Below, piece by piece: positions 13,085-57,415 of a stretch of 64,000 bases of DNA. The stretch spans positions 50,530-114,529 of the forward strand of contig JBBSAJ010000001.1 in the NCBI GenBank assembly GCA_038252405.1. Reading direction: 5' to 3'. The DNA is from Actinomycetes bacterium. GTDB taxonomy: Bacteria; Actinomycetota; Actinomycetes; Prado026. A model generated the notes under the pieces. It made no database searches and was not told where the DNA came from. It saw only the letters and a program-made list of their open reading frames with translations. A program made the translations under genes and the position numbers. How positions within the stretch are numbered: position 1 is the stretch's first letter; every line of letters begins with the position of its first letter.

Positions 13085-13468
13085 ATGTCCCGGCCGCCGC
13101 GCGTGCTCGTCGTCGACGACAGCGACGCCGTCCGCAGCCTGATCCGGGTCAACCTCGAGCTCGAGGGGTTCGAGGTGGTCACCGTCTGTGACGGGCAGCA
13201 GGCCCTCGACGAGGTCGCCGCCGTCGATCCTGACCTGATCACGCTGGACGTCGTCATGCCGAACCTGGACGGGCTCAGCACGGCGACCGCTCTGCGGGCC
13301 CGGGCCGACACCTGGGACATCCCGCTGCTCATGGTGACCGCCCTGGCCCAGGAGTCGGACGTCACGCGGGGCAGGGCGGCCGGGGTGGACGCCTACCTGA
13401 CCAAGCCGTTCGACCCGGCTGAGCTGGTGGCCACCGTGCGCCGGCTGCTTGGCCTCGCCCAGGGCTGA
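13085..13468 (+). CDS. Stand-alone response-regulator receiver domain protein (CheY-like)
   Basis: The protein begins RVLVVDDSDAVRSLIRVNLELEGFEVVTVCDGQQALDE with ...DLITLDVVMPNLDGLS...LTKPFDPAEL, carrying the receiver Asp and Lys residues. It is 127 aa with no output domain. Confidence 0.85.
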   Translation: MSRPPRVLVVDDSDAVRSLIRVNLELEGFEVVTVCDGQQALDEVAAVDPDLITLDVVMPNLDGLSTATALRARADTWDIPLLMVTALAQESDVTRGRAAGVDAYLTKPFDPAELVATVRRLLGLAQG

Positions 13469-49947: not shown

Positions 49948-50969
49948 GCGCCGGCGAGCACTGAACGGACGCCGGCGACGAACGCGTCGACGTCCGCCTC
50001 GGTGGTGTCCCAGGAGCACATCCAGCGCACCGCGCCGGTCGCCTCGTCCCAGACGTAGAACGGTGACGTCGCCTGCAGCGGGGCGATCGCGTCCTTGGGC
50101 ACGCGGGCGAAGACCCCGTTGACCTCGGGCTCGCGCAGCAGCTCGACGCCGGGGACGTCCCGGACACCGTCGGCCAGCAGCCCGGCCATCCGGTTGGCGT
50201 GGCCCGCGTTGGCCAGCCACCGGCCGTCGGTGAGCAGCGCCTCGAACTGGGCCGCCACGTAGCGGGTCTTCGAGGGCAGCTGGCCGGCCTGCTTGCGCAG
50301 GAACCGGGCGGAGCGGGCCAGCTCGGGGTCGAACCACACGACCGCCTCGCCGTACATGGCGCCGTTCTTGGTGCCGCCGAAGGTGAGCACGTCGACCCCG
50401 GCGTCCGCGGTGACGCACCGGACGTCCCCGCCGAGCGCGGCAGCCGCGTTGGCGATGCGGGCCCCGTCGACGTGCAGGTACATCCCGTGGGCGTGCGCGA
50501 CCTCGGCCAGCGCGGCCATCTCGTCGGGGGAGTACACGGTGCCGAGCTCGGTGGACTGGGTGACGGACACCACCCGCGGCTGCACATGGTGCTGGTCGCC
50601 CACGGCGTGCAGCTGCTCGACGACCTGCTCGGGGCGCAGCTTGCCGTCGTCCACCGGCAGGTCGACCAGCTTGCAGCCGGTGAACCGCTCCGGTGCCCCG
50701 CACTCGTCGACGTTGATGTGGGCCGACTCCGGGCAGATCACCGCGTGCTGCGGTCCGAGCAGGGTCTGCAGCCCCACGACGTTGCCGCCGGTGCCACCCC
50801 AGACGAACAACACCTCGACGTCGCCGAGGAGGTCCCGGAAGGCCGCGGTGGCCCGCGCGGTCCACGGGTCCGCCCCGTAGGCCAGCGCATGGCCCTCGTT
50901 GGCCGCGGCGAGCGCGGCGAGGACGGCGGGGTGGACGCCGGATGAGTTGTCGCTGGCAAACAGGTGCAC
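49935..50969 (-). CDS. Low-specificity L-threonine aldolase (beta-eliminating lyase family, PLP)
   Basis: The protein begins MHLFASDNSSGVHPAVLAAL... and continues ...FGGTKNGAMYGEAVV. Its 3' end overlaps the previous gene by 13 bp. Confidence 0.8.
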   Translation of the reverse strand: MHLFASDNSSGVHPAVLAALAAANEGHALAYGADPWTARATAAFRDLLGDVEVLFVWGGTGGNVVGLQTLLGPQHAVICPESAHINVDECGAPERFTGCKLVDLPVDDGKLRPEQVVEQLHAVGDQHHVQPRVVSVTQSTELGTVYSPDEMAALAEVAHAHGMYLHVDGARIANAAAALGGDVRCVTADAGVDVLTFGGTKNGAMYGEAVVWFDPELARSARFLRKQAGQLPSKTRYVAAQFEALLTDGRWLANAGHANRMAGLLADGVRDVPGVELLREPEVNGVFARVPKDAIAPLQATSPFYVWDEATGAVRWMCSWDTTEADVDAFVAGVRSVLAGAQRS

Positions 50970-51010
50970 GCGTCCATCTTGCCCACTGCCTCGACGCCTA
51001 GAGTGGGCGG

Positions 51011-51325
51011 GTGAGCCCGCGGTCGAACCGGCGCCGCGCGGACGAGGTGCCCGAGCTCTCCGCGGGGCTGTCCGCTGAGCTGCCCGAGGAGGGGCCGGAC
51101 GGCGCCTGGATGGTCCGGCGGGTCACCGGCAGCGCGTCGACCAAGGTGTACCGCTGCCCCGGCTGCGACCAGGAGATCCGCCCGGCCACCCCGCACGTGG
51201 TGGCCTGGCCGGCCGACGGGCTCGGTGACCTGGGCGACCGCCGGCACTGGCACACGATGTGCTGGTCCGCGCGGACCCGGCGACGGCCCACGCAGCAGCG
51301 CGGCCGGGGCGGGTCCCGATACTGA
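51011..51325 (+). CDS. Hypothetical small Zn-ribbon-like protein
   Basis: A 104-aa protein with a CPGC...HWHTMC motif (YRCPGCDQEI...RRHWHTMCW). GTG start, high GC3. Confidence 0.45.
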   Translation: MSPRSNRRRADEVPELSAGLSAELPEEGPDGAWMVRRVTGSASTKVYRCPGCDQEIRPATPHVVAWPADGLGDLGDRRHWHTMCWSARTRRRPTQQRGRGGSRY

Positions 51326-51397
51326 TCCCCGACGGTCCCAGCGAGCTCCCAGCATTCGTTCATCAACCTCCCAGCGGCCGCTGGCCACACTCCGGGG

Positions 51398-52615
51398 GTG
51401 CGTACATGGATGCTCACCGGAGTTCTGGTCCTGGCCTTGCTGGGGGCGGGTCTGTTCTGGAGTACCCGCCACGGGGAGGCAGCCCAGACCCGCTACCTCA
51501 CGGCGGCGGTGACGCGAGGGACGGTGGCCGAGACGGTCGCCACGACCGGTTCGGTGCAGCCGCAGATCTCGGTGAGCCTGGCGTTCAGCGGGTCCACGTC
51601 GAGCGGCGCCGGCTCCTCGGGCGGCTCCGGCAGCGCTGGCGCCGGATCGGGCAGTGCCGGGGGATCGAACAGCTCAGCCGGGACCGGGAGCACGACGCAG
51701 AACGTGAGCAGCGGCGCGACCGTCGTGCGGACGGTGACCGCGAAGGTCGGTGAGCAGGCAGCCGCTGGTGCGGTGCTCGCCACGCTGGACGACACGGCCG
51801 CGCAGGCGCAGCTGAGCAGCGCCCAGGCTCAGCTGTCCAGCGCGAAGGCTCGGCAGGCCGCGGAACCGTCCGCACCGAGCGCGACGACGGTCGCGTCGGA
51901 CGCCGCCGCGGTGGCGCAGGCGGAGCAGCAGGTGCTCGGCGCGCAGCAGGCGGTGGCCGCGACCGTGTTGAAGGCACCCGTGGCCGGGGTGGTCACCGCC
52001 GTGAACGTCACGGTGGCCCTGCCCCCGCCCTCTCCCGCGATCACCATGCGGTCCAACGGCCTGGTGGTGGTCGCGTCGGTGCCAGAGGGTGCGATGACCA
52101 GTCTGCAGGCCGGGCAGCGGGCGACCGTGACCGTGCCGGCGCTGTCGAAGTCGGTGGCCGGAACGCTGGCGGCGCTGCCGACAGCGGCGTCGTCCAGCTC
52201 GGGGTCGGCCGTGACGTTCCCGGTGACGGTGAACCTGACCAGCCCGCCCGCGGACCTGCTCGCCGGGATGAGCGCGCAGGTCACGATCGTCATCGCGCAG
52301 CACGCCGACGTCCTGCAGGTGCCGACGAGCGCGATCCAGGGCTCGTCGACGGCACCGACGGTGCAGGTGCTGCAGTCCGGGGTCCCGGTGGGCAAGCCGG
52401 TGGAGATCGGGCTGAGCACGAACTCGAGCACCGAGATCGTCGCCGGGCTGAGTGAGGGCGAGACGGTGGTGGTCGGGGTGGTCAACCCGACAGTGCAGAC
52501 GTCGACCAGCACCACGGGTGGGCTCACCGGTGGCGGCGGCGGCCTCCGCGGTGCCGGGGGGCTGACCGGTGGCGGCGGCGGGTTCCGAGGCGGCGGCGGT
52601 GTCTCCGGTGGCTGA
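51398..52615 (+). CDS. Efflux transporter periplasmic adaptor (HlyD/MacA-type membrane fusion protein) with Gly-rich C-terminal tail
   Basis: An N-terminal TM segment, a biotinyl/lipoyl-like hairpin with a coiled coil (AQAQLSSAQAQLSSAKA), a beta-barrel domain, and a C-terminal GGLTGGGGGLRGAGGLTGGGGGFRGGGG tail. Confidence 0.8.
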   Translation: MRTWMLTGVLVLALLGAGLFWSTRHGEAAQTRYLTAAVTRGTVAETVATTGSVQPQISVSLAFSGSTSSGAGSSGGSGSAGAGSGSAGGSNSSAGTGSTTQNVSSGATVVRTVTAKVGEQAAAGAVLATLDDTAAQAQLSSAQAQLSSAKARQAAEPSAPSATTVASDAAAVAQAEQQVLGAQQAVAATVLKAPVAGVVTAVNVTVALPPPSPAITMRSNGLVVVASVPEGAMTSLQAGQRATVTVPALSKSVAGTLAALPTAASSSSGSAVTFPVTVNLTSPPADLLAGMSAQVTIVIAQHADVLQVPTSAIQGSSTAPTVQVLQSGVPVGKPVEIGLSTNSSTEIVAGLSEGETVVVGVVNPTVQTSTSTTGGLTGGGGGLRGAGGLTGGGGGFRGGGGVSGG

Positions 52616-52631
52616 GCCCGGGACGGCGTTG

Positions 52632-53315
52632 ATGGAGATCGAGAACCTGACCCGGGCGTACCGGATGGGTGAGGTCGACGTGTGGGCACTGCGCGGGGTG
52701 TCGTTCGCGATCCACCCGGGAGAGAACGTCGCGATCATGGGGCCCTCCGGGTCCGGGAAGTCCACCCTGCTGCACCTGCTGGGACTGTTGGACCGGCCGA
52801 CGTCCGGGTCCTACCGGTTCGCCGGCGTGGAGACGTCGACGTTGTCCGACGACAGCCAGGCCCGGCTGCGCAACAAGGTCATCGGGTTCGTCTTCCAGAG
52901 CTTCAACCTGGTGTCGGGGGAGTCAGCCCTGGAGAACGTGGCGTCCCCGCTGGTGTACGCGGGGGTGAAGCGGCGCGAGCGCCTGGACCGGGCGCGGGTC
53001 GCGCTGGAGCGGGTCGGTCTGGGAGACCGGCTGGGTCACGATCCGTCGCAGCTGTCCGGTGGGCAGCGACAGCGGGTGGCGGTGGCCCGGGCGCTGGTGA
53101 CCAACCCGCCGCTGCTGCTGGCTGACGAGCCGACTGGGAACCTGGACTCGGCCGCGTCCGCGGACATCTTGGCCCTGCTGGAGGGTCTGCACGCCTCCGG
53201 GCTGACCGTCGTCACCATCACCCACGACGTGGACATCGCGGCGAAGGCCCAGCGGGTGCTGCACATCGCCGACGGCCTGGTCGTCGGCGACGAGCGGGCG
53301 AGGGTGAGCGCGTGA
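52632..53315 (+). CDS. MacB-type ABC transporter ATP-binding protein
   Basis: The protein begins MEIENLTRAYRMGEVDVWALRGVSFAIHPGENVAIMGPSGSGKSTLL, with the signature LSGGQRQRVAVARAL and the Walker B motif LLLADEPTGNLD. Confidence 0.9.
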   Translation: MEIENLTRAYRMGEVDVWALRGVSFAIHPGENVAIMGPSGSGKSTLLHLLGLLDRPTSGSYRFAGVETSTLSDDSQARLRNKVIGFVFQSFNLVSGESALENVASPLVYAGVKRRERLDRARVALERVGLGDRLGHDPSQLSGGQRQRVAVARALVTNPPLLLADEPTGNLDSAASADILALLEGLHASGLTVVTITHDVDIAAKAQRVLHIADGLVVGDERARVSA

Positions 53316-54532
53316 GCTTCACCGAGGCGTTGCGGCTGGCGGTGCGGCGGCTGCGGACCAACCGGCTGCGGACCGCGCTGACCGCCCTGGGCGTGATCAT
53401 CGGGGTGGGCTCGCTGGTGGTGCTGCTGGCGATCGGCCAGGGCACGAAGGACCAGCTGACCGCGCGGATCGCGGGGCTGGGCACCAACCTGCTCAGCATC
53501 ACCGCCGGGTCGTCGTTCACCGGCCGGGTGCGCGGCGCCGCGGGGACCGCGTCGACGCTGACGGTGGGGGATGCGACCGCGGTGGCGGCGGTGTCGGGGG
53601 TGACCGCGGTCGCCCCGGAGATGCCGGTCAGCAACGTGGTGGTGGTGGACGGGCGGACCAACACCACGACGACCCTGACCGGGACCACACCGGCCGAGGC
53701 CACCGTGCGCAACTACCAGGTCCAGTACGGGACCTTCCTCACGCAGATGGAGACCGACAAGTCGCTGCGGGTGGCGGTGCTGGGGCCAGCCACGGTGACC
53801 GCGCTGGGCGCCACCCCGGCCACGATCGTGGGGTCGACCGTCGACGTCAGCGGGATCCCGTTCCGGGTCGTCGGGGTCACCCAGCCGAAGGGCGGCGCGA
53901 CCGGGTTCAACAACCCGGACGACTTCGTATACGCACCGATCACGGCGGTGCAGACACTGTTCACCGGCGCGACGACGTTGCGCTCCGTTGCCGTCTCGGT
54001 GTCGGACCCGACCCAGATCCCCTACGTGTCCAGCGCGATCACCTCGACGCTGCGGTACCGGCACGGGCTGTCCGGCAGCGCGACCGACGACTTCTCCCTC
54101 GCCAGCCAGGACCAGCTGCTGGCGGTCGCCGGGCAGCAGTCCGCGACGCTGCAGCGGTTCCTGATCGGGATCGCCGCCATCGCGATGGTCATGGGTGGGA
54201 TCGGGATCGCCAACACCATGCTCGTGTCGGTGCGGGAGCGGGTCCATGAGATCGGCACCCGCAAGGCCATCGGCGCGCGGCGGCGTGACATCGGTCGGCA
54301 GTTCCTGGTCGAGGCGGTGATCGTGACCCTGGGCGGCGCCCTGGTGGGCATCGTGCTCGGCGCGGCCGCGACCGTCCCGGTGGGGCACGCCGTCAACGTC
54401 ACCGCTGTCCCGTCGCTGGCCGCCATCGCCTTGGCCTTCGCGTCCGCACTGGTGGTCGGTGTGATCGCCGGCTACTGGCCGGCCCAGCAAGCCTCCCGGC
54501 TCGACCCCGTCGAAGCCCTCCGCTACGAGTGA
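53312..54532 (+). CDS. ABC transporter permease (MacB/FtsX family, four TM segments plus a large extracytoplasmic domain)
   Basis: The N-terminus is ...RLRTNRLRTALTALGVIIGVGSLVV and the C-terminal FtsX region is ...IGIANTMLVSVRERVHEIGTRKAIGA. It is GTGA-coupled. Confidence 0.9.
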   Translation: MSFTEALRLAVRRLRTNRLRTALTALGVIIGVGSLVVLLAIGQGTKDQLTARIAGLGTNLLSITAGSSFTGRVRGAAGTASTLTVGDATAVAAVSGVTAVAPEMPVSNVVVVDGRTNTTTTLTGTTPAEATVRNYQVQYGTFLTQMETDKSLRVAVLGPATVTALGATPATIVGSTVDVSGIPFRVVGVTQPKGGATGFNNPDDFVYAPITAVQTLFTGATTLRSVAVSVSDPTQIPYVSSAITSTLRYRHGLSGSATDDFSLASQDQLLAVAGQQSATLQRFLIGIAAIAMVMGGIGIANTMLVSVRERVHEIGTRKAIGARRRDIGRQFLVEAVIVTLGGALVGIVLGAAATVPVGHAVNVTAVPSLAAIALAFASALVVGVIAGYWPAQQASRLDPVEALRYE

Positions 54533-54548
54533 TGCAGGAGAACCACGT

Positions 54549-55235
54549 ATGTCCACGCCCCACGACCCGGCCCAGCCCGTCCCCCCGGTCCAGCCGGCGC
54601 TGCCGGACCTGTCGGAGTTCATCGCCAACCCCGGCAAGCCGCCCCGCGAGCCGAAGGTGGCCGGCGTGCGCACCTCGCTGTACGCGATCGGGGCGGTCGT
54701 CGGCGTCGTCCTGCTGGGAGCCGGCTACGCCATCGGTCACTACACCGCCAGCGGCCCGAGCACCCTGGTCGCTGCGGTCGCCGACGCCCAGGCCGGCAAG
54801 CTGCCCTGCGGCACCCCCTCGGCGGCCAGCGCCGGCGGCACCGGCGGCACCGGCGGCGCTGCGTCGAGCTTCCTGGTCGCCCGGCTGTGCCAAGGCTCCG
54901 CCAGCACCGGTGCTGGGACCGCGACCGGCACCGGTACGGGCGGCTTCCGCGGCGGCGGGTTCGCCGGTGGCGGCGGGGCGCTGGGCGGCCTGTTCGGTCC
55001 TGGCGCGGTGTCGGGGACGATCGCCTCGGTCGGCAACGGCAACCTGTCCCTGACCACTCGGGCCGGCACGGTCACCATCACCATCCCGTCGACCGCGAAG
55101 GTGACCAAGACCACCGCGGGGGCGCTGTCCGACCTGGCCAACGGCCAAAGCGTCGTGGTGACCACCACCACCAGCGGCACCAGCCGGACTGCCACGAGCA
55201 TCTTCGTGCTCCCGGCCGCGACCACGACCAGCTGA
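54549..55235 (+). CDS. Hypothetical membrane-anchored Gly-rich protein within the efflux cluster
   Basis: An N-terminal TM segment (LYAIGAVVGVVLLGAGYAIGHY), a GGFRGGGFAGGGG motif like the MFP tail, and a C-terminal beta-rich segment. Confidence 0.6.
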   Translation: MSTPHDPAQPVPPVQPALPDLSEFIANPGKPPREPKVAGVRTSLYAIGAVVGVVLLGAGYAIGHYTASGPSTLVAAVADAQAGKLPCGTPSAASAGGTGGTGGAASSFLVARLCQGSASTGAGTATGTGTGGFRGGGFAGGGGALGGLFGPGAVSGTIASVGNGNLSLTTRAGTVTITIPSTAKVTKTTAGALSDLANGQSVVVTTTTSGTSRTATSIFVLPAATTTS

Positions 55236-55236
55236 C

Positions 55237-56583
55237 GTGGCTCGCATCCGCATCCGCGTCTCGGCCGGCACGGTGCAGGTGGCCGCCGTCGTGGGTGCCG
55301 CGATCATCGCCGGGGTTCCGGCGGCCAACGGCGGGTCGACCTCGGCTGCCGCCATCAGCTACACGACCTCAGCGGCCACGGTCACGACGGTGACGGACCG
55401 GATCTCGGCCACCGGCACCGTCCAGCCGGCGAGCACCCTGAACCTGTCCTTCGGCACCAGCAGCCTGCCGGTCACGTCGGTCGCGGTGCATCCCGGACAG
55501 ACCGTTGTGGCCGGGCAGCAGCTGGCCACAATGGAGAGCACCGCAGCGGCGGCGGCCCTGGCCAGCGCTGAGGCCCAGCTTGCTGTGGCCGAAGCCCAGG
55601 CCAACGCAGCGGCCAGCCCGTCGCCGACGCCGAACACGACGACCACGAGGACGACGACCACGAGCACGACGACCACGAGGACGACGACGACCGCCAGGGT
55701 CGGCTCCGCGGCGGCCTGCACCACCGGGACGGGTGGACGGTCAGGTGCCTCCCCGTCCCCGTCCCCGACGGTGAGCCCGACGCCGTCCACCACCCCGACG
55801 CCCGTGTCGGGCCCGGCCGCGACCCCCACGGCCGCCCCGACGGCCAAGCCCACGACGGCGACAAGCACCGCAACGGCCAGCCCCTGCCCCTCGACCTCAA
55901 CCGGAACCGCCACTCCGGCCCGCTCGGCTTCGACCAGCAGTGGAAGCTCCAACGGAAGCCCGAGCGGGGGCGAGTCGGGTGGCACCACCTCGCTGGTCTC
56001 CGCCCAGGCTGCGGTGTCCCTGGCTCAGGCGACACTGGCGGCCGCGACCTTGACCGCCCCATCGGACGGCGTGGTGCAGTCGGTGAACCTCGTGGTCGGG
56101 ACGCTTCCGGGATCCCCCGCTGTGGTGCTGCGCGCGACTGGGTACCAGGTGGTGGTCGACGTCGCTGAGCAGGACGCGCCCTACATCACGGTCGGCCAGA
56201 CCGGACAGGCCAGCTTCACCGCCCTGGGCGCCACCGCACCGGTGGCCGTCGTCCAGGAGCCGACCGTTGGATCCGACGCCAGCTCGGCGGCCGGGGCGAC
56301 GGTGGTCTCGTTCCCGGTCACTCTCGCGATCACCGGTCCACCACCGGGGCTGCTGCCCGGCATGTCCGCCCAGGTCAGCTGGACCGCCGCAACGAAGACC
56401 AACGTCGTGGCCGTGCCGACCGGCGCGCTGCGCAGTGGCGACACCGGCGACGTCGTCCAGGTCCTCGTCAACGGCCAGCCGCAGACCACGGCAGTCAGCA
56501 TCGGGCTGTCCACGACGTCCCTGACCGAGATCACCTCGGGTCTGCGAGCGGGTGACGCCGTGGTCACTGGGACGACCGGGTGA
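55237..56583 (+). CDS. Second HlyD/MacA-type membrane fusion protein paralogue with long Thr/Pro/Ser low-complexity insert
   Basis: A coiled coil (ASAEAQLAVAEAQANA) and a C-terminal barrel region ...VPTGALRSGDTGDVVQVLVNGQPQTTAVSIGLSTTSLTEITSGLRAGD, similar to the first MFP. It also carries TTTRTTTTSTTTTRTTTT, encoded by a 15-bp repeat x4 at 55636-55695. Confidence 0.8.
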   Translation: MARIRIRVSAGTVQVAAVVGAAIIAGVPAANGGSTSAAAISYTTSAATVTTVTDRISATGTVQPASTLNLSFGTSSLPVTSVAVHPGQTVVAGQQLATMESTAAAAALASAEAQLAVAEAQANAAASPSPTPNTTTTRTTTTSTTTTRTTTTARVGSAAACTTGTGGRSGASPSPSPTVSPTPSTTPTPVSGPAATPTAAPTAKPTTATSTATASPCPSTSTGTATPARSASTSSGSSNGSPSGGESGGTTSLVSAQAAVSLAQATLAAATLTAPSDGVVQSVNLVVGTLPGSPAVVLRATGYQVVVDVAEQDAPYITVGQTGQASFTALGATAPVAVVQEPTVGSDASSAAGATVVSFPVTLAITGPPPGLLPGMSAQVSWTAATKTNVVAVPTGALRSGDTGDVVQVLVNGQPQTTAVSIGLSTTSLTEITSGLRAGDAVVTGTTG

Positions 56584-56662
56584 CCCCACCGGCAACCCCG
56601 GATCGGGCGCTCGCAAGGCTCGCTGGTTAGAGTCGGCGGACAATCGCCTGCCCCGAGGACCG

Positions 56663-57415
56663 ATGGCCGAGATCAAGTCGAACACCGTGCTGCCCGCGCG
56701 CCGGAAGCCGCTCGTGCTGCACACGGCGGACGGACTGCGGCTGGTCGGTGAGCTGGCCACGCCGGTGGACCGCTCCCCGGTCGCCACGCTGGTCTGTCTG
56801 CACCCGCTGCCCACGCACGGCGGGATGATGGACAGCCACGTGCTGCGCAAGGCGTCCTGGCGGCTGCCTGCCCTGGCCGGGATCGCGGTGCTCCGCTTCA
56901 ACACGCGCGGCACGAGCTCAGCCGCCGGCACCTCCGACGGCAGCTTCGGCGGCGGGACGGACGAGCGGCTCGACGTGGCCGCAGCCCTCGACTACGTCGA
57001 GCACCACGACCTGCCGCACCCATGGCTGCTGGGCTGGTCCTTCGGCACCGACCTGGCGCTGCGGTGGGGCTGCGACCCCGCCGTGGACGGCGCCATCCTG
57101 CTGTCGCCACCCCTGCGGTACTCGGTGGACGCCGACCTCGACACCTGGGCGGCGTCCGGCAAGCCGCTCGTGGCCCTGGTCCCTGAGCTGGACGACTACC
57201 TGCGACCGGAGGAGGCTCGGCACCGGTTCGCTCGGGTGCCCCAGGCCGACGTCGTGGGTGTCGAGGGCGCCCGGCACCTGTGGGTCGGGGAGGCCTACGT
57301 CCGCCGGGTGCTGGACGAGGTGGTGGTGCGGGTGGCCCCGGGGGAGGCGCCGCTGACCTGGGCGTGGGAGGGTCCCTCGCAGACGTGGAACGACCTGACC
57401 GGAGGGCTGCGATGA
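56663..57415 (+). CDS. Alpha/beta hydrolase
   Basis: A GWSFG nucleophile-elbow motif (LLGWSFGTDLA) within a 250-aa protein. GAGGA RBS. Confidence 0.75.
   Translation: MAEIKSNTVLPARRKPLVLHTADGLRLVGELATPVDRSPVATLVCLHPLPTHGGMMDSHVLRKASWRLPALAGIAVLRFNTRGTSSAAGTSDGSFGGGTDERLDVAAALDYVEHHDLPHPWLLGWSFGTDLALRWGCDPAVDGAILLSPPLRYSVDADLDTWAASGKPLVALVPELDDYLRPEEARHRFARVPQADVVGVEGARHLWVGEAYVRRVLDEVVVRVAPGEAPLTWAWEGPSQTWNDLTGGLR

What the first reader, a model, noticed from the sequence alone, without database searches (positions are those of the whole stretch)
51326..56583. MacB-type ABC efflux cluster with two membrane-fusion-protein paralogues and a Gly-rich membrane protein sharing a GG(F/L)RGGG motif
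The gene order is MFP1 - ABC ATPase - FtsX-type permease - 228-aa Gly-rich TM protein - MFP2, tightly packed with a GTGA overlap at 53312. Both adaptors carry long low-complexity inserts. MFP1 ends in a tandem 'GGLTGGGGG(L/F)RG' tail. MFP2 has a TTTRTTTTSTTTTRTTTT segment plus PT-rich linker encoded by a 15-bp x4 DNA repeat at 55636-55695. The intervening protein repeats the same GGFRGGGFAGGGG motif, suggesting the three non-catalytic components interact or derive from one another. Dual adaptors in a monoderm (no outer membrane) are unexplained. They may span the thick wall or mycomembrane-free envelope, or export a peptide. Upstream, three copies of TCCCAGC (51336-51375) next to an AT-rich patch look like an operator.
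Basis: partly seen in the sequence, partly recalled or inferred. Interest (0 to 1): 0.55.

Follow-up and report, generated by a model that had tools for sequence, protein, structure and literature searches.

The report
Five-gene actinobacterial MacB-type transporter operon
This is a real five-gene operon for a MacB-type ABC exporter in an uncultured actinomycete, an unstudied variant of a known pump with two different adaptor proteins, a membrane-tethered OB-fold helper protein and a conserved response-regulator-type DNA box upstream; the shared glycine-rich motif that drew attention is ordinary low complexity.

Summary
Window 51398-56583 (+) carries MFP1, an ABC ATPase, a MacB/FtsX permease, a 228-aa Gly-rich membrane protein and MFP2. 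The gaps are 16, -4, 16 and 1 nt, and both DNA repeats sit where stated.

- MFP1 and MFP2 are true paralogues (42% identity, E 1e-26).
- MFP2 follows the Gly-protein gene within 1-16 nt in all six lineages of one subclade. It is absent from more distant relatives.
- The Gly-rich protein is not adaptor-derived. It has a cytoplasmic tail, one TM helix, a Cys-bracketed loop, a Gly linker and an OB-fold (divergent DUF5666).
- The same kind of fourth gene follows MFP-ABC-FtsX in cultured Nonomuraea, Micromonospora and Amycolatopsis.
- GG(F/L)RGGG is generic. MFP2 lacks it, 102 of 120 MFP1 homologues have Gly-rich tails, and the closest relative has no Arg there.
- MFP2 has a short alpha-hairpin with a disordered 120-residue Pro/Thr-rich loop at its tip.
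- The three TCCCAGC copies belong to a four-unit array of 7-bp direct repeats with 4-bp spacers. A strict two-unit test pattern matches in 9 of 11 independent related loci, some beside OmpR-type two-component genes.

Most likely this is a response-regulator-controlled envelope efflux or detoxification machine. Substrate unknown. It is a new variant of a known kind.

The parts
51336..51375 (+). Array of four 7-bp direct repeats with 4-bp spacers (11-bp register): TCCCAGC 51336, TCCCAGC 51347, degenerate GTTCATC 51358, TCCCAGC 51369. Putative OmpR/PhoB-type response-regulator box, 23-62 nt upstream of the MFP1 start.
   Evidence: Positions. A strict two-unit test pattern, CAG[GC]-N7-CAG[GC] on the coding strand within 100 nt of the MFP1 start, matches in 8/8 independent loci of the first set (background 0.02 per 100 nt) and in L019. 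Phased variants that fail the strict pattern occur in L023 and L027. Similar boxes occur in Nonomuraea L015, Micromonospora L016 and Amycolatopsis L032. Alignment A6 gives the consensus TCnCAGG-n4-GTTCAGC-n4-TCTCAGG.
51398..52615 (+). MFP1, a MacA-type membrane fusion (adaptor) protein of 405 aa. It has an N-terminal TM helix, a Ser/Gly-rich loop insert (about residues 64-107, nt 51587-51718), a short alpha-hairpin, and a Gly/Phe/Arg-rich C-terminal tail (residues 372-405, nt 52511-52612, encoded by a 39-bp x2.4 repeat). An alternative start is ATG 51410.
   Evidence: (HlyD_3 31.4 bits against GA 22.2; TIGR01730 90 bits against cut-off 94.9). Orthologue tails.
52632..53315 (+). ABC ATPase (NBD) of MacB/LolD type, 227 aa from ATG 52632. 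The open frame reaches back to GTG 52569, overlapping the MFP1 tail.
   Evidence: ABC_tran E 5e-34; best NCBIfam matches MacB 2e-75 and LolD 2e-69. The public gene call on L004 is 227 aa. Junction.
53312..54532 (+). MacB-type (type VII ABC) permease of 406 aa: four TM helices with a large extracytoplasmic MacB_PCD domain. GTGA start/stop overlap with the ATPase gene.
   Evidence: MacB_PCD 4.6e-36, FtsX 6.3e-20. (full-length match to solved MacB 5lil E 4e-56, 5gko, 5nik; S. pneumoniae Spr0695 5xu1_M E 2e-35).
54549..55235 (+). Accessory bitopic membrane protein of 228 aa. Parts in order: cytoplasmic N-tail with the conserved PDLS(D/E)(L/F)I..PGKPP; TM helix (residues about 43-65, nt 54675-54743); invariant Cys87/Cys114 bracketing a variable loop; Gly-rich linker (about 115-152, nt 54891-55004, containing GGFRGGGFAGGGG); OB-fold domain (153-222, nt 55005-55214), a divergent DUF5666.
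55237..56583 (+). MFP2, the second adaptor paralogue, 448 aa. It has an N-terminal TM helix and a confident lipoyl/beta-barrel/membrane-proximal core. Its short hairpin (helices 102-126 and 247-268) carries a disordered 120-residue Thr/Pro/Ser-rich insert at the tip (residues 127-246, nt 55615-55974) with two Cys. It has no Gly-rich tail.
   Evidence: 42% identity to MFP1 over 171 aa, E 1e-26; AF2; Foldseek: MacA 9qgy_G E 3e-16; also AcrA, MexA, BesA, Spr0693.
55636..55688 (+). 15-bp x3.5 tandem repeat (ACGACGACCACGAGG) encoding TTTRTTTTSTTTTRTTTT inside the MFP2 insert. Copy number differs in the closest relative (TTTTSTTTT in L010).

Best explanation
The region is one operon encoding a five-component, MacB-type (type VII, mechanotransmission) ABC export machine of an uncultured actinomycete.

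**Shown**
- The gene order is MFP1, ATPase, MacB-like permease, accessory protein, MFP2.
- The genes are tightly coupled.
- The first four genes form a module that recurs in the related metagenomic loci and in the three cultured actinomycetes sampled.
- MFP2 is a fixed fifth gene in one subclade.
- The accessory protein is a membrane-tethered OB-fold (DUF5666-like) on a Gly-rich leash.
- MFP2 has a short hairpin whose tip carries a long disordered Pro/Thr-rich loop.
- A direct-repeat box of OmpR/PhoB type is conserved upstream.

**Inferred**
- A response regulator encoded elsewhere in this genome binds the 7-bp/4-bp-spacer repeats near the -35 position and switches the operon on. The trigger is probably an envelope signal.
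- The ATPase and permease dimer use ATP-driven movements of the extracytoplasmic domain to push a membrane-surface or wall-zone substrate outward through an adaptor ring. The substrate is most likely an amphipathic peptide, antibiotic or similar compound.
- The ring is probably a mixed MFP1/MFP2 hexamer, as with TriA/TriB.
- MFP1 supplies a plain short hairpin and a flexible Gly/Phe/Arg tail near the membrane.
- MFP2 supplies Pro/Thr-rich, probably O-glycosylated, possibly disulfide-clamped loops that extend into the wall.
- The OB-fold protein acts as a tethered fourth subunit that binds substrate or modulates assembly or activity, comparable in role to YknW or CusF. Its conserved cytoplasmic tail may contact the ATPase or the kinase.
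For: **Domain identities:**

**Operon structure:**

**MFP paralogy:**

**Co-conservation**
- The Gly-protein gene always directly follows the permease gene.
- MFP2 lies 1-16 nt behind it in six lineages with unrelated flanks.

**Fourth component is general**
- Nonomuraea L015, Micromonospora L016 and Amycolatopsis L032 each have MFP-ABC-FtsX followed by a 180-192-aa protein with a TM helix, a Gly/Gln-rich linker and an OB-like domain.
- The family HMM hits the L015 and L016 small proteins at E 6.5e-12 and 8.3e-11.

**OB fold:**

**MFP2 hairpin-tip insert:**

**Response-regulator box**
-.
- OmpR-type regulator and kinase genes lie next to the module in L001, L012, L015 and L016.
- M. tuberculosis PhoP binds 7-bp direct repeats (TCACAGC) with a 4-bp spacer (PMC4832192).

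**Functional precedent**
- Gram-positive MacAB-like pumps protect against peptides, their adaptors form hexameric channels, and accessory membrane proteins exist (PMC5985334; PMC5768738).
- Two adaptors are required in TriABC, and a fused double adaptor exists in a Gram-positive (PMC4338810).
Against: - No substrate, expression or interaction data exist for any member.
- No regulator or kinase orthologue lies within the 64-kb window, so regulation rests on the box alone.
- The box pattern was generalised after seeing the data. The strict pattern fails in 2 of 11 independent loci (L023, L027), which show only relaxed phased versions.
- Hetero-oligomerisation of MFP1 and MFP2 is inferred by analogy.
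- O-glycosylation and disulfides are guesses from composition and conserved Cys.
- The window protein itself gives no Pfam DUF5666 hit even at E 10. The link is through its family profile and fold.
- The AF2 model of the accessory protein is only confident in the C-terminal domain (mean pLDDT 57).
- The envelope type of the organism (monoderm or mycolate outer membrane) is unknown.
Confidence: 0.6

Rival explanations
1. It is not an efflux pump but a mechanotransducer of the FtsEX/LolCDE kind. ATP-driven motions of the MacB-like permease are passed to extracytoplasmic partners, namely the OB-fold protein and the wall-reaching MFP2 loops. They would activate or move something in the envelope, such as a wall hydrolase, a lipid, a glycolipid or a lipoprotein, rather than expel a toxin.
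For: The MacB fold is shared by FtsEX and LolCDE, which do no trans-bilayer transport (PMC5985334; PMC5768738). The permease also scores on LolC/E and FtsX models. A dedicated tethered extracytoplasmic partner is conserved.
Against: Scores for FtsX and LolCE models are far below their cut-offs, while the MacB match is full-length. FtsEX and LolCDE work without adaptor proteins, whereas here one or two adaptors are always present. No hydrolase or lipoprotein-carrier gene is conserved next to the module.
Confidence: 0.2
2. MFP1 and MFP2 do not co-assemble. Each forms its own homo-hexamer on the same transporter, giving alternative pumps with different reach or substrates, or MFP2 serves another transporter.
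For: Relatives with a single adaptor function without MFP2. The MFP2 C-terminal half is closer to the single adaptor of MFP2-less relatives (50-52% identity) than to its own MFP1 (41-42%).
Against: MFP2 is always the last gene of the same operon, 1-16 nt behind the accessory gene, in six lineages. The two classes have complementary features: tail and N-terminal insert only in MFP1, hairpin-tip insert only in MFP2. That fits division of labour. TriA/TriB give a precedent for an obligatory pair.
Confidence: 0.15
3. One reading: the GG(F/L)RGGG motif is a specific shared module showing that MFP1, MFP2 and the Gly-rich protein derive from one another or dock through it.
For: The exact motif occurs only twice in six-frame translation of the window, both times in this operon. 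Gly/Phe-rich stretches in the MFP1 tail and the accessory-protein linker look alike within several genomes.
Against: MFP2 has no such motif. The exact motif is in 7/37 relatives of the accessory protein and absent in the closest one. 102/120 adaptor homologues across actinomycetes have Gly-rich tails. Profile-profile comparison of the two families aligns nothing, and BLASTP finds nothing. The longest shared DNA strings are no longer within genomes than between them. The folds differ.
Confidence: 0.05
4. It is a metal-efflux-like system in which the OB-fold protein is a CusF-type metallochaperone handing ions to the adaptor.
Confidence: 0.03

Closest known systems
Gram-positive MacAB-like pumps: S. 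pneumoniae Spr0693-0694-0695 and Bacillus YknWXYZ
   Same: Split ATPase plus MacB-type permease with an N-terminally anchored adaptor in a bacterium without TolC. The permease matches Spr0695 (5xu1_M, E 2e-35), and the MFP2 model matches Spr0693 (5xu0_B). As in YknWXYZ, an extra co-transcribed membrane protein is present (PMC5985334).
   Different: There are two adaptors instead of one. The extra protein is a single-pass OB-fold/DUF5666 protein, not the four-TM Yip1-like YknW. MFP2 carries a disordered Pro/Thr-rich loop at the hairpin tip. MFP1 has a Gly/Phe/Arg tail. The pump is probably controlled by an OmpR-type regulator box.
E. coli / A. actinomycetemcomitans MacAB-TolC
   Same: Full-length similarity of the permease to MacB (5lil E 4e-56). 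The adaptor fold is closest to MacA (9qgy_G, 5nik_D, 4dk0). The ATPase is best matched by the MacB NBD.
   Different: NBD and permease are separate genes. No outer-membrane factor gene is present. The MFP2 hairpin is short, with a disordered insert at the tip that docks TolC in MacA.
TriABC-OpmH of P. aeruginosa, and the fused double adaptor DSY0927 of Desulfitobacterium
   Same: Two diverged adaptor paralogues are encoded in one transporter operon. TriA/TriB share 36% identity and both are required. DSY0927 joins a coiled-coil-less adaptor to a conventional one in a Gram-positive ABC system (PMC4338810). Here the identity is 42% over the C-terminal half.
   Different: TriABC is an RND pump of a diderm with an outer-membrane channel. 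Here the transporter is MacB-type, the two adaptor genes are separated by three genes, and co-assembly is untested.
CusF with CusCBA (a small beta-barrel fourth component)
   Different: No metal-ligand residues. It is membrane-anchored through an N-terminal helix and a Gly-rich tether rather than soluble. The transporter class is different.
M. tuberculosis PhoP box and other OmpR/PhoB-family direct-repeat sites
   Same: 7-bp direct repeats separated by 4 bp (11-bp register), with a core close to TCACAGC (PMC4832192). Variants here are TCCCAGC, TCACAGG, TCTCAGC and ACACAGC.
   Different: The cognate regulator is unknown. Regulators adjacent to relatives are generic OmpR/PhoB members with no equivalog assignment. 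Binding is untested.

Membership tests
MacB-type (type VII) ABC transporter | Permease with FtsX-type four-helix membrane domain and a large extracytoplasmic (MacB_PCD) domain between TM1 and TM2 | tested here: met
   Pfam MacB_PCD 125.5 bits (GA 27) at residues 21-245 and FtsX 71.9 bits (GA 25.5) at 287-399. End-to-end phmmer match to solved MacB chains, E 4e-56.
MacB-type (type VII) ABC transporter | Cognate ABC ATPase of the MacB/LolD/FtsE group | tested here: met
   ABC_tran 118 bits. Best NCBIfam matches are the MacB NBD (2e-75), LolD (2e-69) and FtsE (2e-59). The ATPase is a separate gene with a GTGA overlap to the permease gene.
MacB-type (type VII) ABC transporter | Transport or mechanotransmission activity, and substrate | not testable with these tools
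   No functional data. Needs genetics and biochemistry.
Membrane fusion / periplasmic adaptor protein (MacA, HlyD, RND_mfp) | N-terminal anchor plus lipoyl, beta-barrel and membrane-proximal domains with an alpha-hairpin | tested here: met
   MFP2: TIGR01730 106.9 bits (cut-off 94.9). AF2 core pLDDT >90 with helices 102-126 and 247-268. Foldseek to MacA, AcrA and MexA at E 1e-13 to 3e-16. MFP1: HlyD_3 31.4 bits (GA 22.2), TIGR01730 90 bits (just under 94.9), 42% identical to MFP2.
YknWXYZ four-component system | Accessory protein YknW: four TM helices, Yip1 family | tested here: not met
   The accessory protein has one predicted TM helix and an OB-fold domain, with no Pfam hit at all. It is analogous in position only.
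DevBCA-type exporter | Adaptor of the DevB family (TIGR02971) and DevA-type ATPase (TIGR02982) reaching the family cut-offs | tested here: not met
   DevB model scores 40.6 and 42.5 bits against cut-off 129. DevA scores 176 against 295.8.
DUF5666 (PF18914) OB-like domain proteins | Match to the PF18914 model | tested here: inconclusive
   The window protein gives no hit even at E 10. Two orthologues carry PF18914 precomputed. P0013 scores 29.6 bits (GA 27) over the homologous residues. The family profile retrieves 4322 proteins. Of 10 proteins scanned (8 of them from that retrieved set), 8 carry PF18914 at E <= 0.01: 5 of 6 distant retrieved proteins, the orthologue P0013, and 1 of 2 closer full-length relatives. 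The fold is OB. It is best called a divergent DUF5666-like domain.
Dual-adaptor pumps (TriABC-like) | Both adaptors required and assembled in one hetero-oligomeric ring | not testable with these tools
   Only co-conservation and complementary features are shown. Multimer prediction or experiments are needed.
OmpR/PhoB-family response-regulator binding site | Tandem direct repeats in an 11-bp register (7-bp unit, 4-bp spacer) near the promoter, conserved across orthologous promoters | tested here: met
   Four units at 51336-51375. The phased CAGS-N7-CAGS pattern occurs in 8/8 loci of the first set against 0.02 expected per 100 nt. It is also present in L019, with relaxed versions in L023 and L027, and similar boxes occur in three cultured genera. 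Alignment A6.
OmpR/PhoB-family response-regulator binding site | Binding by a cognate regulator and an effect on transcription | not testable with these tools
   No regulator orthologue in the window. EMSA, ChIP or a reporter assay is needed.

The most novel reading that the evidence does not exclude
Actinomycetes may possess a so far undescribed standard architecture of MacB-type machine. A membrane-tethered DUF5666 OB-fold protein would be an obligatory fourth subunit. Flexible Gly/Phe/Arg-rich segments, namely the adaptor tails and the OB-protein leash, would form a cohesive contact around the adaptor ring. In the subclade represented here, a second adaptor would extend glycosylated, disulfide-clamped Pro/Thr-rich loops from its short hairpin. 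These loops would thread into the cell wall and do the job that TolC docking does in diderms. The whole would be driven by a dedicated PhoP-like regulator through a conserved direct-repeat box.
Probability: 0.15. Interest if true: 0.7.

Novelty: new variant of a known kind. Interest (0 to 1): 0.45.

Why it matters
What adaptor proteins do in bacteria that lack a TolC-type exit duct is an acknowledged gap (PMC4338810, PMC5985334). This locus and its relatives offer three handles.
- A conserved, unstudied fourth subunit (tethered OB-fold/DUF5666) is found next to MacAB-like pumps in culturable Nonomuraea, Micromonospora and Amycolatopsis, so it can be tested genetically.
- A natural pair of adaptors has divided features. 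One keeps a Gly-rich tail. The other carries a wall-directed disordered loop at the tip of a short hairpin.
- A conserved regulator box could identify the controlling two-component system and hence the inducing signal and substrate.

It also gives DUF5666 a first concrete genomic context. It further shows that public gene calls routinely break the low-complexity adaptor gene.

Tried and rejected
- **Homology between the Gly-rich protein and the adaptors.** BLASTP and hhalign of family alignments found nothing. Rejected.
- **Gene conversion between the MFP1-tail DNA and the linker DNA.** Longest common substrings are 8-19 nt within genomes and 8-20 nt between genomes. Rejected.
- **Pfam on the accessory protein.** No hit at E 10, whole protein or C-terminal part.
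- **Related loci in GTDB species representatives.** The first attempt failed because the alignment was too diverse. The second found only 2 loci. The family is rare and mostly metagenomic.
- **Cognate regulator or kinase in the window.** Only a receiver-domain hit at 13094-13438.
- **Sigma-70 consensus scan.** No promoter. One terminator-like site lies inside the MFP1 coding start and is probably chance.
- **Rfam over 50900-56800.** Nothing meaningful.
- **14-bp palindrome CCAGCGGCCGCTGG (51371-51384) as an alternative operator.** It is broken in the 95%-identical relative L010, so it is not favoured.
- **Antisense ORFs over the low-complexity regions (54740-55225 and 55359-55988, minus strand).** Considered as real genes. 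They share third-codon positions with the + frame. The + frame is intact and conserved across diverged loci. They are therefore treated as artefacts.
- **Literature.** Searches for DUF5666 (6 papers, none on transport) and for MacB with Streptomyces or Actinobacteria found no description of this module.

Full report
**1. What is in the sequence**

The region is 72-76% G+C. It carries five co-directional ORFs.
- MFP1, 51398-52615 (GTG; in-frame ATG at 51410).
- An ABC ATPase. Its ORF opens at 52569, but the likely start is ATG 52632, as in the public gene call (227 aa).
- A permease, 53312-54532.
- A 228-aa protein, 54549-55235.
- MFP2, 55237-56583.

The junctions are 16 nt, a GTGA overlap at 53312-53315, 16 nt (with AGGAGA before the ATG) and 1 nt. 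The neighbouring genes are separated by larger gaps. Upstream lies a 104-aa Rv1322-family protein ending at 51325. Downstream lies an alpha/beta-hydrolase starting at about 56663. Both are syntenic only in the closest relative.

Tandem Repeats Finder confirms the 39-bp x2.4 repeat encoding the MFP1 tail (52520-52612) and the 15-bp x3.5 repeat (55636-55688) encoding the Thr-rich run of MFP2. Third-position G+C is 0.88-0.96 in all five + frames.

**2. Identities**

The permease has MacB_PCD and FtsX domains. It aligns end to end with solved MacB proteins (5lil E 4e-56, 5gko, 5nik) and with S. pneumoniae Spr0695. The ATPase is best matched by the MacB NBD and by LolD.

Both flanking proteins are adaptors. 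MFP2 passes the RND_mfp cut-off. MFP1 passes HlyD_3 and falls just short on RND_mfp. They are 42% identical over the C-terminal 171 residues, E 1e-26. DevB and DevA models are far below their cut-offs.

**3. The Gly-rich protein**

It has no Pfam or NCBIfam hit, even at E 10. Only 37 relatives were found among 5.8 billion proteins, and only 2 loci in GTDB species representatives. The named relatives are 'Actinomycetes bacterium' MAGs.

The alignment shows these parts in order:
- a cytoplasmic N-tail with a conserved PDLSDLI..PGKPP;
- one TM helix;
- SGP.TL..AV...AGKLPCGTP, followed by a variable loop, followed by ARLC;
- a Gly-rich linker ending in a conserved GGLFGPGAV;
- a conserved C-terminal domain.

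The two Cys are present in 36 of 37 relatives.

A profile of the family finds 4322 proteins at E <= 0.001. Only 26 of them score at E <= 1e-30. Most match only the linker plus the C-terminal domain, often in 2-12 tandem copies. Of six distant retrieved proteins scanned, five are DUF5666 (PF18914) proteins. The orthologue P0013 passes the DUF5666 cut-off over the homologous residues. So the domain is a divergent DUF5666-type OB fold on a glycine leash.

**4. The module is general, and MFP2 is a clade-specific fifth gene**

In every related locus the Gly/OB gene directly follows the permease gene.

Three cultured actinomycetes were chosen only as distant MFP1 homologues: Nonomuraea L015, Micromonospora L016 and Amycolatopsis L032. 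All three have MFP-ABC-FtsX followed by a 180-192-aa protein with a TM helix, a Gly/Gln-rich linker and an OB-like domain. The family HMM hits the L015 and L016 small proteins at E 6.5e-12 and 8.3e-11.

MFP2 is present 1-16 nt behind the Gly/OB gene in all six lineages whose Gly/OB protein is at least 50% identical to the window's:
- window/L010/L017;
- L005 (the same contig as L024);
- L007;
- L011;
- L018-L021;
- L022/L023.

The genes flanking the operon differ among these lineages. MFP2 is absent in all lineages at 48% identity or below (L001/L029, L012, L013, L014, L025-L028, L030) and in the cultured genera.

Public gene calls break MFP2 into a 189-aa fragment plus an antisense ORF. The full frame is nevertheless intact: 480 aa in L010 and 494 aa in L007.

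**5. The two adaptor classes**

MFP1-type adaptors, including the single adaptor of MFP2-less relatives, share three features:
- a Ser/Gly-rich insert near the N-terminus;
- an alpha-helical hairpin, long in P0232 and short in the window;
- a Gly/Phe/Arg-rich C-terminal tail.

MFP2-type adaptors lack both the N-terminal insert and the tail. Between two short helices they carry a Thr/Pro/Ser-rich insert of 100-250 residues. In most members it is bracketed by Cys in T-rich contexts: TTVC(R/H)TTTVT ... RTCTTT.

The AlphaFold model of the window MFP2 has a confident core (249 residues at pLDDT >= 90). Helices 102-126 and 247-268 form a short hairpin, and residues 127-246 are disordered. Foldseek matches MacA in MacAB-TolC (E 3e-16), AcrA, MexA, hairpin-less BesA and Spr0693. 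The insert therefore sits at the tip that contacts TolC in diderms.

**6. The glycine motif**

GG[FL]RGGG occurs only twice in six-frame translation of the window, but several results show it is not a specific shared module.
- MFP2 lacks it.
- The exact motif is found in 7 of 37 relatives of the accessory protein.
- It is replaced by GGFAGGGGGFAGGGG in the closest relative.
- 102 of 120 MFP1 homologues, down to 28% identity and including Nonomuraea, Microbispora, Micromonospora and Amycolatopsis, have at least 40% Gly in their last 30 residues. 55 of them have GG[FL][RG]GG.
- hhalign aligns nothing between the two families.
- Shared DNA strings are no longer within genomes than between genomes.

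The motif is therefore recurrent low complexity. It is typical of this class of adaptor tails and of the Gly-rich linkers of the accessory-protein family. What such tails do is an open question for the whole class.

**7. The upstream element**

TCCCAGC is not enriched window-wide: 16 matches against 14.1 expected. The copies at 51336, 51347 and 51369, together with a degenerate GTTCATC at 51358, form four units in an 11-bp register. The repeat finder detects this as a 22-bp duplication.

The same architecture precedes the first adaptor gene in diverged loci.
- L007: TCTCAGG/TCTCAGC/CTTCAGG.
- L005: TCACAGG/TCGCAGG/GCTCAGT.
- Others are listed.

The pattern CAG[GC]-N7-CAG[GC] lies on the coding strand within 100 nt of the start in 8 of 8 independent loci of the first set. 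The background is 0.02 per 100 nt. It is also present in L019. L023 and L027 show only relaxed phased versions.

Cultured genera show it too.
- Nonomuraea: ACACAGC-gaac-GTTCAGC.
- Micromonospora: GCACAGG-ttcg-GCACAGT, placed before the regulator gene.
- Amycolatopsis: ACACAGC-tgcc-GCACAGG-caac-GAACAGT.

Alignment A6 gives the consensus TCnCAGG-n4-GTTCAGC-n4-TCTCAGG.

OmpR/PhoB-family regulator and kinase genes adjoin the module in L001, L012, L015 and L016. They are generic family members. M. tuberculosis PhoP binds 7-bp direct repeats (TCACAGC) with a 4-bp spacer (PMC4832192).

The pattern was generalised after inspection, so the nominal probability is optimistic. The conservation across orders is nevertheless hard to ascribe to chance. 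No such regulator is encoded in the window. A 14-bp palindrome overlapping the last unit is not conserved in L010.

**8. Mechanism**

Shown: an operon for a MacB-type ATPase and permease, two diverged adaptors, a tethered OB-fold protein, and a conserved regulator-type box.

Inferred:
- The operon is induced by a distant two-component system.
- ATP-driven mechanotransmission expels a membrane-surface or wall-zone compound through an adaptor ring. This is the model proposed for Gram-positive MacAB-like pumps, whose adaptor channels span the inner-wall zone and which protect against peptides such as LL-37 and SDP (PMC5768738; PMC5985334).
- The ring is a mixed MFP1/MFP2 assembly, by analogy with TriA/TriB and with the fused double adaptor DSY0927 (PMC4338810).
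- The Pro/Thr-rich MFP2 loops reach into the wall.
- The OB-fold protein acts as a substrate-binding or regulatory fourth subunit.

Rivals are a non-efflux mechanotransducer, alternative homo-oligomeric adaptor rings, the motif-based reading and a CusF-like metal chaperone. They are weighed in the rival section.

**9. Novelty and limits**

MacB-type pumps with adaptors in Gram-positives are known. This combination is not described in the searched literature:
- a conserved tethered DUF5666/OB fourth gene;
- a second adaptor with a short hairpin and a Pro/Thr-rich tip insert;
- a PhoP-like box.

Substrate, assembly, regulation and even the envelope type of the host are untested. I rate it a new variant of a known kind, of moderate interest, mainly because the four-gene core can be studied in cultured actinomycetes.

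Noticed in passing
L032:1-15299 (Amycolatopsis sp., GCA_040640995.1): The MFP-ABC-FtsX-OB module sits inside a haem/cytochrome-c locus. hemA-, hemC-, hemD- and hemB-like genes lie upstream. TspO, a hemL-like aminotransferase, a thioredoxin-like protein, CcdA and ResB lie downstream. MacAB and HrtAB have been linked to porphyrin or haem export, so a porphyrin substrate is conceivable. This is a single case.
   Followed up: no
L010:9950-11392, L007:8725-10209; public protein HEY5185242.1: Public gene callers split the MFP2 gene into a 177-199-aa C-terminal fragment. They also call an antisense ORF over the Pro/Thr-rich insert. The full 480- and 494-aa frames are intact. Low-complexity adaptor genes are probably under-annotated in MAGs.
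   Followed up: yes
L012:4221-4620: A 113-bp unit is repeated about 3.5 times between the histidine-kinase gene and the adaptor gene. Each copy holds the palindrome TGACCGACCATTCGGTCA. It may be an operator array or a small mobile repeat.
   Followed up: no
window:51371-51384: A perfect 14-bp palindrome, CCAGCGGCCGCTGG, overlaps the last heptamer of the repeat box. It is disrupted in the 95%-identical relative L010.
   Followed up: partly
window:51011-51325 (+): A 104-aa protein with CPGC...HWHTMCW, of Pfam family Rv1322 (PF27609) according to the public gene table. It lies directly upstream and is syntenic only in the closest relative, so it is not part of the module.
   Followed up: partly
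window:13085-13468 (+): A 127-aa ORF matches only the receiver domain of OmpR-type regulators (41-43% identity). It appears to be a stand-alone receiver protein, not the cognate regulator.
   Followed up: no
window 55636-55688 and 54900-54990, compared with L010:9238-9948 and L010:9950-11392: Low-complexity segments change length between close relatives. The T-rich run has 4 units in the window and 2 in L010. The Pro/Ser/Thr linker is 32 residues longer in L010. A (Gly-Thr)n run and the Gly linker are expanded in the L010 accessory protein.
   Followed up: partly
window MFP2 compared with L001, L012, L013 adaptors: The C-terminal half of MFP2 is more similar to the single adaptor of MFP2-less relatives (48-51% identity) than to the MFP1 of its own operon (41-42%). 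This suggests an old duplication followed by faster divergence of MFP1 in the dual systems.
   Followed up: no
window:54740-55225 (-) and 55359-55988 (-): Long antisense ORFs with high third-position G+C lie over the Gly-rich and Pro/Thr-rich coding stretches. This is typical of high-G+C low-complexity DNA, and they are treated as non-genes.
   Followed up: partly
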